Source: Mnemiopsis leidyi
Taxonomy: Eukaryota
DNA length: 64,000 bases
Reading direction: 5' to 3'
Assembly (NCBI GenBank): GCA_048537945.1
Contig: CM108484.1
Span: 19,009,034 to 19,073,033 of the forward strand
Under the pieces are notes generated by a model. The model was not told the DNA's origin and ran no database searches. It saw nothing but the letters and a program-made list of their open reading frames with translations. Positions 44,701-64,000 of the stretch are shown here, in pieces (the first letter of the stretch is position 1; every line of letters begins with the position of its first letter). Both the position numbers and the translations under genes were made by a program.

Positions 44701-46494
44701 CACAAAAGTGCCGCGATTCATTATTGGTCGAGGGGTTACCACGTGCCGCGCGCCACGTGATTCTTTCTCCAACGTTAAAGTATCAAAATCACGTGTTAAT
44801 TTGATGACGCAAGCACCCACCTGACCGCGCGCAGTAGCTCAGCTTTCCTTCGTCGGTAGAATCGAGCGTAAAATTTTGTCGGTTTAGTATAAAACGTGGT
44901 GCTGGTCTCATTTCAGAGGTTGAATGTTTCTTGTTTGTTTGTTGGGCATTCGAAAGTTTTTACCTCTTTCAGTCATGATTTTCAATTCTAGCTTAAATAG
45001 TGACTCCTCCATTGCTTGTTGTTTCAGCTGGCAATCAATTTCGTGGTTTTACCTAGAAAAACGATGGATTGCTGCTAATCATCAATCATAATTCAATCAT
45101 TGCGCTGTGGCCGCATACGGGGTTTTCGAGCTAACTAGCAGCATCTCGATCTGACAGCAGTACTCAGAAGAAAGTTGTACACATACAGTCCACCAAATCT
45201 TTTGCCATTTTACTACATGAACAGTGTTGACTTAAGTACCTGTAGAATTTTCAATTCAAGCGTTCAAGTTAGGGTTCAAGTTAGGGTTAAATCCCGTATC
45301 GGTATGAAATAAATCTCAAACAGTTCAATTCCCCTGTTGGCTTGAATAGAATTTCGTCACGACCTTCTTCAATTCAGAGTAAAAAAGACATGAATGTCGT
45401 TAGTTTGATTATAGCCAGAGTTGCAGTTTGACATAATAGCTACACCGATCTCCGACCTATTTTGTTGCTGTTGCTATTCACACTGACAGTTGACAAATCT
45501 TAGAAAAGTTTCAATTATACTAGTAAGCAGTACACTTGGCTGTTTTTGACGGTGGTAAGCAAGTGGTACTGTCCTCATTTCTGTAAATTTTTGTTCTGTC
45601 AGATCCATTACTGTGTCGATCTATGAGCCTACCAAATAATTCTGTCAAAACTTGGTTCTTGCTCGCTTTACTTTTAGCTTGACTTGTGTGATTGGTTTTG
45701 TTGCACGGATTTAAATGCTGACCTATAATTAGTTGTGTTGGGGTTTTCAGACACAGGCAAAATGTTATATCCCAATCGAATTTGTGTGGCATCAAGTGGC
45801 GCTCTCGGCCACGTGTATGGAAGGACTAGATACCGATTTTATAATCACAGATATCAACTCACCCTCAGTTACGAGCTCTGTTATTTACTATCCAAAGTTT
45901 TACGTTACTGTTGATACGGAGTCTTAACGGTACGTTGAGTTCCAGAGCTGTGACTTGTGGCTTTATAAAACGTATCTCACATTTTCGTCTTATTATAGGA
46001 GACAGGGCCGAAACCGAACGGCAGGGAGAAGGTGATATCTCACATTTTGACTTTTTCGAAAAGTTTTTTAAAGCCTCAGCCTTCACATCAAGTCATACTG
46101 CGACCTATATACTACTGCTATAAATATTCTCATATTCTATTAATAATGTAAGTTATAGTCGAAATTACACCGCTTAAAAGCAGCTGTCAATATCGGCTTC
46201 TTCCGCAATCCTTCTCATTCACCTTAAGCTGATCTTTGACGCCCGACTCCCTTTTCTTCACACTTTCTGATGAGTTTTGCCTGAACTCACCAGTCTAAAC
46301 AGCATCATTACAGTTGGTTACTGACAAAATACGCAAAACGAAGCCGGTTGACCGGACCGACAGACCGGACGGGCGTGCCTATATCAGTTGAAAAGTAGGT
46401 CCAAACTTTAGAAGTTTTACGTTTAGACGTCTTTAGCGAAAGAACAGTTAAACTGTCTGGGACACGTTAAGATTCCTCATTTCGGGCATTTCTC

Positions 46495-46612
46495 AATTTG
46501 GGCACTGAGTGGTAAAGTTTGAGCACTAAGTGGTTCAGTTTGGGTACTGAGAGGTTCGGTTAGGGTACTGGAGGTTCAGTCTGGGTACTGAGAGGTTCAG
46601 TTTGGGCACTGG
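46495..46612. repeat. 20-bp tandem repeat x6 (GGTTCAGTTTGGGTACTGAGA)
   Basis: Direct periodicity, mirrored at about 62760-62880. Confidence 0.85.
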
Positions 46613-61082: not shown

Positions 61083-61255
61083 GAGTGAGAGAGAGAGTGA
61101 GAGAGAGAGAGAGAGAGAGAGAGAGAGAGGAGGAGAGAGAGAGAGAGAGAGAGAGAGAGGGCTAGAGGGAGAGAGAGAGAGAGAGAGAGAGAGAGAGAGA
61201 GAGAGAGAGAGAGGGCTAGAGGGAGAGAGAGAGGGCTAGAGGGAGAAAGAGACAG
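61083..61255. repeat. (GA)n microsatellite with GGGCTAGAGG interruptions (right arm)
   Basis: Dinucleotide run. Confidence 0.95.
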
Positions 61256-64000
61256 CGAGAGAGAGTTTGTGAAAAAAGGTCACCAACCAGTCTGCTTGAA
61301 TAAATCTAACCTGATAGTTTTCATCACAGCACCGTCTTCTGTCGGCCTTCTGTCTGTACATCAATCTTCTGCACTGCCATGGTGACAAGGGTGACTCGTT
61401 CTGCTATGTTGCCATGCAATAACCGTGTGTGTAGACCGCTAGGTTGCAATGGTAACTGGCTGTCTCGTTTTGCTGCGTTGCCATGGTAACAGCGTGTCTC
61501 GCTCTACTACGTTTCCATGGTAACCGCGTGTATTAATGGCAGTACCATCTCTGGTGAGGGTCAAAAATGATTCTACTACTGATAAAACTTTTACATAATT
61601 CCAATACAAAGGATGTTCTGACCATGGTACTTAAAAATATTATTATTCAAATCCGATTGCGTGACTTTTCCGCTACAGCACTAAAAATATCTAAGCACTG
61701 ATATGTAAACATTATTATAGATGAGAGCAGACTGCAGAGGGAGCTTTTATGTTTATGTTAAGTTGAATTATTAATAAGTACCTGATACACTGGAGCACAT
61801 TTCTTCTTGATCCCTTAGCGTGCTTATAGATAGACAGTCATCCACACGATATCTCATACATCATAGAAGTACAAAGGTCCTGAATGTTCCTTTATGGAGG
61901 TCTTCTTTTAATTTTATAAAAGTTGTTGGAGTGGTTTGTTTTCACACACACTTGTCACCATAATATCCTAAAAGGAAGAGATTTTGAACTGAATCGGATA
62001 TATTCTATCATAAACTACATATATATCAACGTTCAACAGTTGTTGAGTATCTATTTACGACAATTTAAAAGCCTCTACAAGTTACCAGGAATAAAATGTT
62101 ACAACTATAAGATCCAAAGTAGATATTCAAGAGAAGGATTAATAAAAGTCAGCTATCGGAATTTCTTAACATATGGCTATTTTTCTTAATACCTGTACGA
62201 AGTATGATTAAAACGATTGAGCAATTAAATATTGCCACATCGGGATATCTGTATATATATCTGTATATATGTATGTATATATACATACGAATGAATTAAC
62301 AATAATACAACTAAAGTTTAGACTGCAAATATGCCACCAACGACTCTAGCGCAACTCTAAACAAACAAACAAATAATTGAAAGAAAAAGTTGGACAAGGC
62401 GAAAAATGAATTGTGATTTTAGCCTTGAAGCCTGTTAACCCATCATTTTGAAACTCCCCACTAATTAGCCTTCTGGATTTAGGCTAACGTAATTGTCTGT
62501 TGTATTTCTTTATTGTTATGAGCTTTTCAACGATTAGCAGAAATAAAATTTCGATCAACTTGGAACTGTGCACACGACTTGTCTAAACTTCGGAGCCGAC
62601 CGGTCCAGTTTTATTTCCAAAATATACCAGATTGGGAAATTCTCTAAATTTTCAGTTCTCGCTTATTATCCACTTGTCAGGTAATGCACTTGATATTCGT
62701 AGCCCTGGGCTGGCTCAGTGAGCATGTTGCATGTGATCTTTAACCAGACTTATTAGGCCAGTGCCCAAACTGAACCTCTCAGAACCCCTACTGAACCCCT
62801 CAGTCATCAAACTGAACCTCTCAGACCCTAACTGAACCTCTCGGTACCCAAACTGAACCACTTAGTGCTCAAACTTTATCACTCAGTGCTCAAAATGAGA
62901 AATGCCCGAGATGAGGCATCTTAACGTGTCTCAGACGTCTAAACGTAAAACTTCTAAAGTTTGGAACTACTTTTCAACTGATCCAGGCACGCCCCCCGTA
63001 ACCAACTGTAATGATGCTGTTAAGACTCATGAGATCAGGCAAAACTCATCAGAAAGTGCGAAGAAAAGGGACTCGGGCGTCAAAGATCAGCTTGAGGTGA
63101 ATGAGAAAGATTGCAGAAGGAGCCGATATTGACAGCTGCTTTTAAGCGGTGTAATTTCGACTATAACTTACATTATTAATAGAATATTAGAATATTTATA
63201 GCAGTAGTATATAATAGGTCACAGTATGACTTGATGAGAAGGCTGAGGCTTTAAAAAACTTTTCGAAAAAGTCAAAATGTGAGATATCACCTTCTCCCTG
63301 CCGTTCGGTTTCGGCCCTGTCTCCCCAAAAAATAAGACGAAAATGTGAGATACGTTCTATAAAGCCACAAGTCACAGCTCTGCAACTCAACGTACCGTTA
63401 AGACTCCGTATCAACAGTAACGTAAAACTTTAGATAGTAAATAACAGTAAATGTAACTGTCATCAAAATAGAGAGCTCGTAACTGCAAGGGTGAGTTGAT
63501 ATCTGTGATTATAAAGATCTAGTCCATCCATACACGTGGCCGAGAGCGCCACTTGATGCCACACAAATTCGATTGAGATGTAACTTTTTGCCTGTGTCTG
63601 AAAACCCCAACGGCCAACACAACTAATTATAGGTCAGCATTTAAATCCGTGCAACAAAACCAATCACACAAGTCAAGCTAAAGCGAGCAAGAACCAAGTT
63701 TTGACAGAATTATTTGGTAGGCTTATAGATTGACACAGTAATGGATCTGACAGAACAAACATTTACAGAAATGAGGACAGTACCACTTGCCTACCACGGT
63801 CAAAAACAGCCAAATGTACTGCTTATAGTATTGAAGTGTACTGCTTATAGTATTGAAACTTTTCTAAGATTCGTTCAACTGTCAGTGTGAATAGCAAGAG
63901 CAACAAAATAGGTCGGAGATCAGCAGGTCAAACTGCATCTCTGGCTATAATCAAACTGACGAATGTCTCTTTTACCGAAGAATTGAAGAAGGTCGTGACT

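What the first reader, a model, noticed from the sequence alone, without database searches (positions are those of the whole stretch)
45350..64000. Inverted duplication of at least 18.6 kb (diverged palindrome) whose centre is a foldback element; one arm carries a post-duplication SINE insertion
The whole second half of the window is a reverse-complement duplicate, with arms of at least 9.6 kb meeting at 54941/55132. The arms differ by scattered substitutions, indels and microsatellite lengths. One example is the ORF-like segment at 45911-46123 versus 63196-63414, with roughly 8 differences in 70 codons. The left arm also contains a 340-bp tRNA-SINE (53379-53718) at a site that is empty in the right arm (about 56395, ...CAACATTAAGGTCCCGACTGCAGG). 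That indel and the divergence argue for a real, moderately old inverted duplication rather than a long-read foldback chimera. The centre is itself a foldback (FB-like) element homologous to the one at 43383-44700. This suggests formation by foldback-mediated template switching or hairpin-primed replication, as described for FB/Galileo-type elements in Drosophila. The right arm runs off the window, so the true size is unknown.
Basis: partly seen in the sequence, partly recalled or inferred. Interest (0 to 1): 0.85.

Follow-up and report, generated by a model that had tools for sequence, protein, structure and literature searches.

The report
Diverged inverted duplication centred on transposon ends
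About 9 kb of non-coding DNA upstream of a major-vault-protein gene in an unnamed marine invertebrate is present twice, head-to-head and about 95% identical, with both copies ending at inward-facing transposon termini, so it is most likely a real but fairly ordinary transposon-associated rearrangement.

Summary
Window 45355-54940 is the reverse complement of 64000-55133, separated by a 192-bp spacer, and the right arm is cut by the window end. Outside micro- and minisatellites the arms differ at 261 of 5740 sites (K2P 4.7%) plus 95 indel events, only 5 of them homopolymer-length. A 337-bp SINE-like insert (53376-53712) is present only in the left arm. A same-molecule foldback chimera is therefore excluded.

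The interpretation needs correcting. The centre is not a foldback element with outward-facing ends. Both arms stop exactly at a 42-bp terminus (TTGACGAG...) of a TIR element family that also occurs at 43391, and the arm sequence lies on the element-internal side. The spacer is a patchwork of the same family. I favour a transposon-end-mediated origin: either local inverted re-insertion of a large non-autonomous unit, or a break at the terminus repaired by sister or foldback fusion.

The arms are non-coding. Five independent public contigs all cluster with the left arm (1-4% substitutions), one per sample, so this is not a high-copy repeat. A head-to-head join of two divergent haplotypes cannot be excluded without reads (about 0.1).

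Overall: a new member of a known kind, of modest interest.

The parts
45355..54940 (+). Left arm of the inverted duplication (9586 bp visible; the outer limit is set by the window end, not by biology)
   Evidence: Non-coding: 166-207 stops per ~3195 codons per frame and no Pfam match.
55133..64000 (-). Right arm (8868 bp, runs off the window); reverse complement of the left arm
   Evidence: K2P 4.7% outside repeats, with 95 indel events.
54941..55132 (.). 192-bp asymmetric spacer made of fragments of the same TIR element family
   Evidence: 54969-55054 is an 88-bp TIR fragment (81-82% to 43391-43466). 55055-55132 has short matches to internal parts of the 43-kb element.
54899..54940 (-). 42-bp element terminus (TTGACGAGATTATATCCGTCTA...) forming the inner end of the left arm
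   Evidence: 95% to 43391-43432. Arm homology stops here.
55133..55174 (+). 42-bp element terminus forming the inner end of the right arm
55010..55054 (-). Third terminus copy, inside the spacer, in the same orientation as the left-arm terminus
43391..44690 (+). TIR (foldback-like) non-autonomous element carrying the same terminus at 43391-43432. It has internal inverted repeats 43431-43550 / 44554-44665, including 62 nt that are 100% complementary. Its right terminus is degenerate.
   Evidence: No Pfam match.
53376..53712 (+). 337-bp SINE-like insertion, left arm only. Box A TGGTGTAGTGG at 53384-53394 and box B GGTTCAAATCC at 53428-53438.
   Evidence: Not recognised as tRNA.
56413..56416 (-). 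Empty site in the right arm (CAAC between flanks that are contiguous with the SINE flanks of the left arm)
42567..42734 (-). Second, diverged copy of the SINE head/core (82% over 172 bp), outside the arms
50504..53032 (+). 54-bp-unit minisatellite inside the left arm
   Evidence: Arm identity drops to 86-90% here.
56760..58867 (-). The same 54-bp minisatellite in the right arm, about 0.4 kb shorter
48451..49106 (+). (CT)n 48451-48577 and (AC)n 48954-49106 microsatellites. Their mirrors in the right arm, at 61082-61265 and 60464-60695, have different lengths.
49150..49686 (+). Longest arm ORF (178 aa, no family match, broken in the right arm). Used only as a probe to retrieve independent contigs.

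Best explanation
This is a genuine, low-copy inverted duplication of non-coding DNA lying at least 5 kb upstream of the major-vault-protein gene. Its arms have diverged independently by about 4.7%.

Both arms terminate at the centre in the same 42-bp terminus of a non-autonomous TIR (foldback-like) DNA-transposon family, with the termini facing each other across 192 bp of fragments from the same family. The most likely origin is therefore transposon-end-mediated. There are two versions:
(a) A large non-autonomous or composite unit bounded by these termini re-inserted locally in inverted orientation. The only correctly oriented partner terminus is at 43391, which would make the unit 11.55 kb.
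(b) Transposase cut at the terminus, and the broken ends carrying the element fused (sister-chromatid fusion, foldback repair or alternative transposition), with filler copied from neighbouring elements.

After the duplication there was no arm-to-arm gene conversion. Substitutions, about 95 indels, micro- and minisatellite length changes and one SINE insertion in the left arm accumulated.

Shown: the duplication, its divergence, the termini and their orientation, the lack of coding capacity, and the low copy number in other samples. Inferred: the mechanism, its direction, and any consequence such as hairpin RNA if the locus is transcribed.
For: - Arms and divergence.
- The arm homology ends exactly at TTGACGAG on both sides. 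The same 42 bp (95%) ends an unrelated element at 43391. Only four copies exist in the window, against 0 expected by chance.
- The orientation places the arms inside the termini.
- The spacer is built from the same family.
- The longest exact match between arms is 99 bp, and divergence is roughly uniform along the arms (3-5%), so there has been no recent conversion and no long near-identical tract that an assembler could confuse.
- The left-arm sequence is independently confirmed: JGI contig L005 is 98.96% identical over 1157 bp with no gaps.
- There is one contig per sample in five samples, so this is not a high-copy repeat.
- The mechanism class is documented for Ac/Ds: alternative transposition plus fusion of broken ends gives inverted duplications of transposon and host DNA (bioRxiv 10.1101/2020.01.07.897926).
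Against: - There is no target-site duplication around a putative 43391-54940 unit (ATTTCATT vs CAGTATGT).
- The two putative unit ends share only 42 bp.
- The 43.4-44.7 kb segment has its own internal inverted repeat and may be a separate element.
- No transposase is present in the window.
- The outer ends of the arms are not visible.
- No independent contig could be obtained for the centre or for the right arm.
- All five independent contigs resemble the left arm, so the existence of the right arm in other individuals is unproven.
Confidence: 0.55

Rival explanations
1. One reading: a foldback element at the centre formed a hairpin or caused a template switch during replication, so host DNA on one side was copied back in inverted orientation (FoSTeS/MMBIR or hairpin-primed synthesis). 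The transposon is only the turning point.
For: The centre is rich in inverted terminus-like units and folds strongly (z = -10.2). The family at 43.4-44.7 kb is foldback-like. A 4-5 bp overlap (CAAC) exists between the left-arm terminus and the adjacent TIR fragment.
Against: A central FB element would have its termini facing outward with host DNA beyond them. Here the termini face inward and the arm homology stops exactly at them. The strong fold merely reflects the inverted arms, and the terminus with its neighbouring unit is not a significant hairpin by itself (z = 0.13).
Confidence: 0.18
2. Assembly artefact: the two arms are the two haplotypes of one highly heterozygous locus, joined head-to-head by the assembler. 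On this reading the SINE is an insertion polymorphism.
For: Left-arm-like sequences from other samples differ from each other by up to 4.8% in substitutions, comparable with the left-right distance of 5.2-5.4% in the same segment. All five independent contigs cluster with the left arm and none with the right. The right arm runs off the window, so its continuation is unknown.
Against: There are no Ns anywhere in the window. The junction lies exactly on transposon termini on both sides, with 192 bp of structured spacer. No near-identical tract exists in the arms (maximum 99 bp) that could have caused an overlap error. A turn-around at a foldback element would leave outward-facing termini. The right arm is the most divergent of the seven sequences, with 19 private changes in 478 sites.
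Confidence: 0.12
3. The arms are two unrelated insertions of a dispersed multi-copy transposon family that happen to lie next to each other in opposite orientation. There was no local duplication event.
For: Arm homology ends at element termini. Several mutually diverged versions of the 49.3-49.8 kb segment exist in public data.
Against: Only five sequences exist in a collection of about 15 billion proteins, one contig per sample. No third copy of any arm segment occurs in the other 45 kb of the window. Two chance insertions of a rare element of at least 9.6 kb within 192 bp of each other are unlikely.
Confidence: 0.1
4. A foldback chimeric long read (template and complement strands joined without an adapter) seeded a false palindrome.
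For: Palindromic shape with a small spacer.
Against: The arms would derive from one molecule and be near identical. Instead they show 4.55% substitutions, 95 non-repeat indels of which only 5 are homopolymer-type, a 337-bp SINE difference and different satellite lengths. The junction also lies on transposon termini.
Confidence: 0.02

Closest known systems
Inverted duplications and composite insertions made by alternative transposition of maize Ac/Ds (p1-ww-id1, p1-ww-id4, the 'Ac killer' loci) and Mu killer
   Same: An inverted duplication of transposon plus adjacent sequence whose junction is defined by transposon termini. These arise when the termini of nearby elements are engaged and broken ends fuse. 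Such loci can give hairpin RNA.
   Different: No transposase, footprint, 8-bp target-site duplication or reciprocal deletion can be shown here. The superfamily is unknown. The arms are old (4.7% diverged), whereas the maize cases arose de novo. No evidence of transcription or small RNAs was obtained.
Foldback (FB-type) elements: Drosophila FB and Galileo, sea-urchin TU elements (from my own knowledge)
   Same: Non-autonomous elements dominated by inverted repeats with degenerate subrepeats near the termini. The 43.4-44.7 kb element fits this description, and the whole locus is a long inverted repeat with a short loop.
   Different: In FB elements the termini lie at the outer ends of the inverted repeats. 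Here they are at the centre, facing inward. Apart from one internal 54-bp minisatellite, the arms are complex unique sequence rather than subrepeat arrays. Copy number appears low.
Large sex-chromosome palindromes of primates (Y P1-P8 and X palindromes; from my own knowledge)
   Same: Arms longer than 8 kb in inverted orientation around a short unique spacer.
   Different: Those palindromes keep more than 99.9% arm identity by gene conversion and carry genes. Here identity is about 95.5% with no conversion tracts and there are no genes.
False (heterotype) duplications in assemblies of heterozygous genomes (from my own knowledge)
   Same: Two diverged copies of one locus side by side, with divergence in the range seen between alleles of this taxon.
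   Different: Such artefacts are usually direct rather than inverted, and they sit at gaps or contig ends. Here there is no gap, and the junction is a structured cluster of transposon ends.

Membership tests
Foldback (FB-type) transposable element, applied to the whole 18.6-kb structure | Element termini at the outer ends of the long inverted repeats | tested here: not met
   The only termini lie at the centre and face inward (54940 minus strand, 55133 plus strand). The outer ends are beyond the window.
Foldback (FB-type) transposable element, applied to the whole 18.6-kb structure | Inverted repeats built largely from tandem subrepeats | tested here: not met
   Only a 2.1-2.5 kb 54-bp minisatellite and two microsatellites per arm are repetitive. 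The rest is complex sequence.
Foldback (FB-type) transposable element, applied to the whole 18.6-kb structure | Multiple dispersed copies in the genome | tested here: inconclusive
   There is one contig per sample in five public samples and no further copy in the window. The source genome itself could not be searched.
Transposon-end-mediated inverted duplication (alternative transposition / composite insertion) | Transposon termini exactly at the duplication junction | tested here: met
   Arm homology stops at TTGACGAG on both sides. The same 42 bp ends another element at 43391.
Transposon-end-mediated inverted duplication (alternative transposition / composite insertion) | Target-site duplication flanking the inserted unit | tested here: not met
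   The flanks of 43391 and 54940 (ATTTCATT / CAGTATGT) do not match. The outer flank of the right arm is not in the window.
Transposon-end-mediated inverted duplication (alternative transposition / composite insertion) | A cognate transposase source and a known superfamily | tested here: not met
   No Pfam match in any stop-free stretch of 50 aa or more in the arms or the 43-kb element. An autonomous copy elsewhere in the genome is not testable.
tRNA-derived SINE (the 53376-53712 insert) | Internal pol III box A and box B at tRNA-like spacing | tested here: met
   TGGTGTAGTGG at 53384-53394 and GGTTCAAATCC at 53428-53438. This is a motif match only.
tRNA-derived SINE (the 53376-53712 insert) | Head recognisable as a tRNA by structure-aware tools | tested here: not met
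   ARAGORN finds 0 genes. Rfam finds nothing at gathering threshold or at E<=1.
tRNA-derived SINE (the 53376-53712 insert) | Target-site duplication and an A-rich or simple-repeat tail | tested here: not met
   No clean duplication. The insert ends ...AAAATAAGTATGAGATAT, and the empty site carries 4 extra bases, CAAC.
tRNA-derived SINE (the 53376-53712 insert) | Member of a repeated family | tested here: met
   A second copy at 42567-42734 is 82% identical over the first 172 bp, and the match starts within 1-3 bp of the indel edge.
Gene-conversion-maintained genomic palindrome | Arm-to-arm identity above 99%, or conversion tracts | tested here: not met
   p=4.55%, roughly uniform along the arms, and the longest identical run is 99 bp.
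Assembly false duplication (haplotype misjoin) | Half read depth on the arms, or no reads spanning the junction | not testable with these tools
   No reads are available. Indirect evidence: no Ns and the junction lies on transposon termini. However, allelic-scale divergence of up to 4.8% exists in this taxon.

The most novel reading that the evidence does not exclude
The arms are two copies of a giant (about 11.5 kb) cargo-carrying non-autonomous 'macrotransposon' bounded by 42-bp foldback-family termini (43391...54940). It re-inserted head-to-head 192 bp from itself. The resulting 9-kb hairpin locus upstream of the vault-protein gene would be transcribed into long double-stranded RNA that feeds small-RNA silencing of this element family, a natural 'killer' locus in an early-branching or otherwise unstudied marine invertebrate lineage.
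Probability: 0.12. Interest if true: 0.55.

Novelty: new member of a known kind. Interest (0 to 1): 0.3.

Why it matters
If real, this is a clean natural example, outside the plant and fly models, of a palindrome whose centre is defined base-for-base by transposon ends. It supports the idea that transposase-made breaks or local re-insertion, rather than generic replication errors, seed long inverted repeats. Such repeats are potential fragile sites and potential sources of hairpin RNA.

Practically, the locus is also a useful test case for assembly quality control. The arm divergence is within the range of allelic divergence seen for this taxon, so it should be checked with reads before being counted as a duplication.

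Tried and rejected
1. Identifying the source genome. MVP exons gave only about 90% relatives from Tara/JGI metatranscriptomes and Logan, and named animals reached only about 64%. Literature searches for PRJNA326132, SRR3713*, ERR6349715 and ERR63497* found nothing useful. A ctenophore or another lineage without annotated genomes is only my guess.

2. Looking for independent contigs across the centre and right arm. A 1279-aa composite of 18 ORFs gave no hit.

3. Scanning JGI metagenome contigs by DNA pattern. Both the terminus core and a 29-mer known to be in L005/L007 returned nothing. That collection therefore lacks those samples, and both nulls are uninformative.

4. Coding capacity of the arms. 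Pfam found nothing on 8 ORFs or on all stop-free stretches of 50 aa or more. The 'KRKTSKVWNYF' BED-finger-like motif at 62902-63132 has no Pfam support and was dropped.

5. A short element at the inner arm end. There is no partner terminus or inverted repeat within the left arm.

6. The idea that the terminus and its neighbouring unit form a hairpin. Rejected (z = 0.13).

7. tRNA identity of the SINE head. Not supported by ARAGORN or Rfam.

8. Target-site duplications for the SINE and for a 43391-54940 unit. None found.
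Full report
**Observation.** A minus-strand self-comparison and a global alignment confirm that window 45355-54940 is colinear with the reverse complement of 64000-55133. 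The outer limit at 45355 is imposed only by the window end. Over all aligned columns identity is 93.5% (7834 matches, 545 mismatches). Per 500 bp it is 94-97.6%, dropping to 86-90% inside a 54-bp-unit minisatellite (50504-53032 and 56760-58867). Outside micro- and minisatellites and the SINE there are 5740 aligned sites with 261 substitutions (p = 4.55%, K2P = 4.7%, transitions:transversions 131:130, 34 transitions in CpG context). There are also 95 indel events totalling 625 bp, of which only 5 are homopolymer-length changes. The longest run of identical bases between the arms is 99 bp. The differences are therefore real sequence divergence, not read error, and it is spread fairly evenly along the arms, so there is no sign of recent arm-to-arm gene conversion.

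**SINE.** The left arm carries 337 bp (53376-53712) that the right arm lacks. In the right arm the two flanks are separated only by CAAC (56413-56416). The insert begins with box A-like (TGGTGTAGTGG) and box B-like (GGTTCAAATCC) motifs. Its first ~172 bp match a second copy at 42567-42734 (82%), and that homology starts within 1-3 bp of the indel edge. This favours insertion of a repeat-family member into the left arm over a deletion in the right arm. However, ARAGORN and Rfam at gathering threshold and at E<=1 do not recognise a tRNA. There is no clean target-site duplication and no A-rich tail. 'SINE-like, possibly tRNA-derived' is as far as the evidence goes.

**What the arms are.** They are non-coding. 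Each frame has 166-207 stops in about 3195 codons. Eight ORFs, and then all stop-free stretches of 50 aa or more from both arms and the neighbouring element, have no Pfam match. Each arm contains (CT)n and (AC)n microsatellites and the minisatellite, and all of these differ in length between the arms.

**The centre.**
- The 192-bp spacer (54941-55132) is asymmetric.
- Both arms end in the same 42-bp sequence, TTGACGAGAT(T/G)ATATCCGTCTA(A/C)CGTTCTAACGAAACGATAG. It lies on the minus strand at 54899-54940 and on the plus strand at 55133-55174.
- A third copy lies in the spacer (55010-55054, minus strand) as part of an 88-bp TIR fragment (54969-55054).
- A fourth copy (95% identical) lies at 43391-43432 (plus strand). 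It is the outer end of a ~1.3-kb element with internal inverted repeats 43431-43550 / 44554-44665, including 62 nt that are 100% complementary.
- Zero such matches are expected by chance, and a more sensitive search finds no further copy.
- Beyond the 42 bp the four copies diverge into two types.
- The rest of the spacer (55055-55132) has only short matches to internal parts of the 43-kb element.

The key point is orientation. At 43391 the unrelated flank lies on the TTGACGAG side. At the centre the TTGACGAG ends face each other, so the spacer is 'outside' and the arm sequence is 'inside' the termini. The arm-to-arm homology stops at these termini to within one base. The strong predicted fold of the centre (z = -10.2) only restates that the arms are inverted. 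The terminus with its neighbouring unit is not a hairpin by itself (z = 0.13).

**Context.**
- A major vault protein gene lies on the minus strand with exons from 40384 down to 23631. A 6.6-kb, 59-bp-unit satellite (31207-37865, 113 copies) sits in one of its introns.
- A protein-kinase exon lies on the plus strand at 14717-15004.
- The duplication therefore lies in the 5' intergenic region of MVP.
- The closest MVP proteins are unnamed Tara Oceans/JGI metatranscriptome and Logan contigs at about 90% per exon. Named animals of many phyla are all at about 62-65%.
- The host is thus an unnamed marine invertebrate lineage, not Drosophila. The source genome is not in the searchable collections.

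**Independent sequence.** The longest arm ORF (49150-49686) retrieved five short contigs from five samples: three runs of the 'invertebrate metagenome' project PRJNA326132 and two JGI samples.
- L005 is 98.96% identical to the left arm over 1157 bp without gaps, and its ORF differs at 1 of 178 residues. The left-arm sequence is therefore independently confirmed in the same species.
- In substitutions only, the left arm is 1.1-2.3% from L005, L006 and L007 and 2.9-4.0% from L003 and L004.
- The right arm is 4.6-7.1% from all of them, with 19 private changes in 478 shared sites.
- The left-like sequences differ from each other by up to 4.8%.

Two conclusions follow. First, one contig per sample argues against a high-copy dispersed repeat. 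Second, allelic or closely related sequences in this taxon can be almost as divergent as the two arms, so divergence alone cannot prove that the right arm is a paralog rather than a second haplotype. Attempts to obtain contigs over the centre or the right arm failed. Two DNA-pattern scans of the JGI contig collection were empty, and the second showed that the collection does not hold the relevant samples.

**Explanations.**

*Favoured (0.55): a real inverted duplication produced through the transposon ends.* There are two versions.
- (a) A large non-autonomous or composite unit bounded by the 42-bp termini re-inserted locally in inverted orientation. The only correctly oriented partner of the 54940 terminus is the one at 43391, giving an 11,550-bp unit. 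This predicts a mirrored terminus about 1.9-2.0 kb beyond the window end.
- (b) A transposase-made break at the terminus, followed by fusion of the two element-bearing ends (sister chromatids, foldback repair or alternative transposition), with filler copied from neighbouring family members.

Fusion of broken ends after alternative transposition is documented to create inverted duplications of transposon and host DNA in maize.

Against (a): there is no target-site duplication (ATTTCATT vs CAGTATGT), only 42 bp are shared between the putative ends, and the 43-kb segment looks like an element in its own right.

*Rivals.*
It is weakened by the terminus orientation.
- A head-to-head join of two haplotypes (0.12). 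It is not excluded by divergence, but there are no Ns, the junction is a structured cluster of transposon ends, and no near-identical tract exists that could mislead an overlap assembler.
- Two chance neighbouring insertions of a dispersed family (0.10). It is weakened by the low copy number.
- A foldback chimeric read (0.02). It is refuted by the divergence.

**Consequences.** No function is indicated. If the locus is transcribed across the centre, it would form a long imperfect hairpin RNA, as in Mu killer and the Ac killer loci. This is inference only. Taking K2P 0.047 with an assumed neutral rate of 1-5 x 10^-9 per site per year (my assumption) puts the event very roughly 5-25 million years ago, if the arms are paralogs.

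**Verdict.** It mislocates the role of the transposon and overlooks the haplotype-misjoin rival. Transposon-associated inverted duplications and long inverted repeats are well known, so I class this as a new member of a known kind, of modest interest (0.3).

Noticed in passing
window 23631-40384 (minus strand): A complete-looking major vault protein gene of about 13-14 exons. Its closest relatives are unnamed marine metatranscriptome contigs at about 90%, and all named animals are at about 62-65%, so the source is a lineage without annotated relatives in the collection.
   Followed up: partly
window 31207-37865: A 6.6-kb tandem satellite (59-bp unit, 113 copies, about 96% identity, strong C-over-G and T-over-A strand skew) lying inside an intron of the vault-protein gene.
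   Followed up: no
window 14717-15004 (+), possibly with 1782-2490 (+): An exon encoding part of a protein kinase domain (Pfam PK_Tyr_Ser-Thr, 25.3 bits against a cut-off of 23.1). The motif [10 protein letters not shown]...[12 protein letters not shown] and an upstream CCSENYCN stretch suggest, from memory only, a TGF-beta/activin type I receptor gene convergent with the vault-protein gene.
   Followed up: partly
window 11143-12912; 9045-9933; 16513-16832; 5685-6007; 17877-18094: Further tandem arrays in the putative receptor-gene region: an 83-bp satellite (about 21 copies, 95-97%), a 14-bp array (63 copies) that creates spurious ORFs, a 63-bp array (5 copies, 99%), a 29-bp array, and (AC)109.
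   Followed up: no
window 43391-44690: A ~1.3-kb non-autonomous element with a 62-nt perfectly complementary internal inverted repeat (43489-43550 / 44554-44615) and internal direct and inverted 40-63-bp repeats. It looks young, or homogenised, compared with the 4.7%-diverged arms next to it. Its right terminus lacks the 42-bp end found on its left.
   Followed up: partly
L003-L007 (public contigs matching window 49041-50197): All five independent contigs begin at or after the (AC)n microsatellite, and the three longest (L005, L006, L007) end near 50174-50197, so short-read assemblies of this locus break there; these sequences differ from one another by 0.8-4.8% in substitutions, which hints at very high nucleotide diversity or a species complex in the host of PRJNA326132 and JGI samples 3300050672/3300050183.
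   Followed up: partly
window 62902-63132 (+) and its mirror near 46220-46450 (-): A short ORF containing KRKTSKVWNYF, reminiscent of the start of a BED zinc finger (hAT-type). It has no Pfam support and the rest of the finger is absent, so it is probably chance or a very decayed relic.
   Followed up: yes
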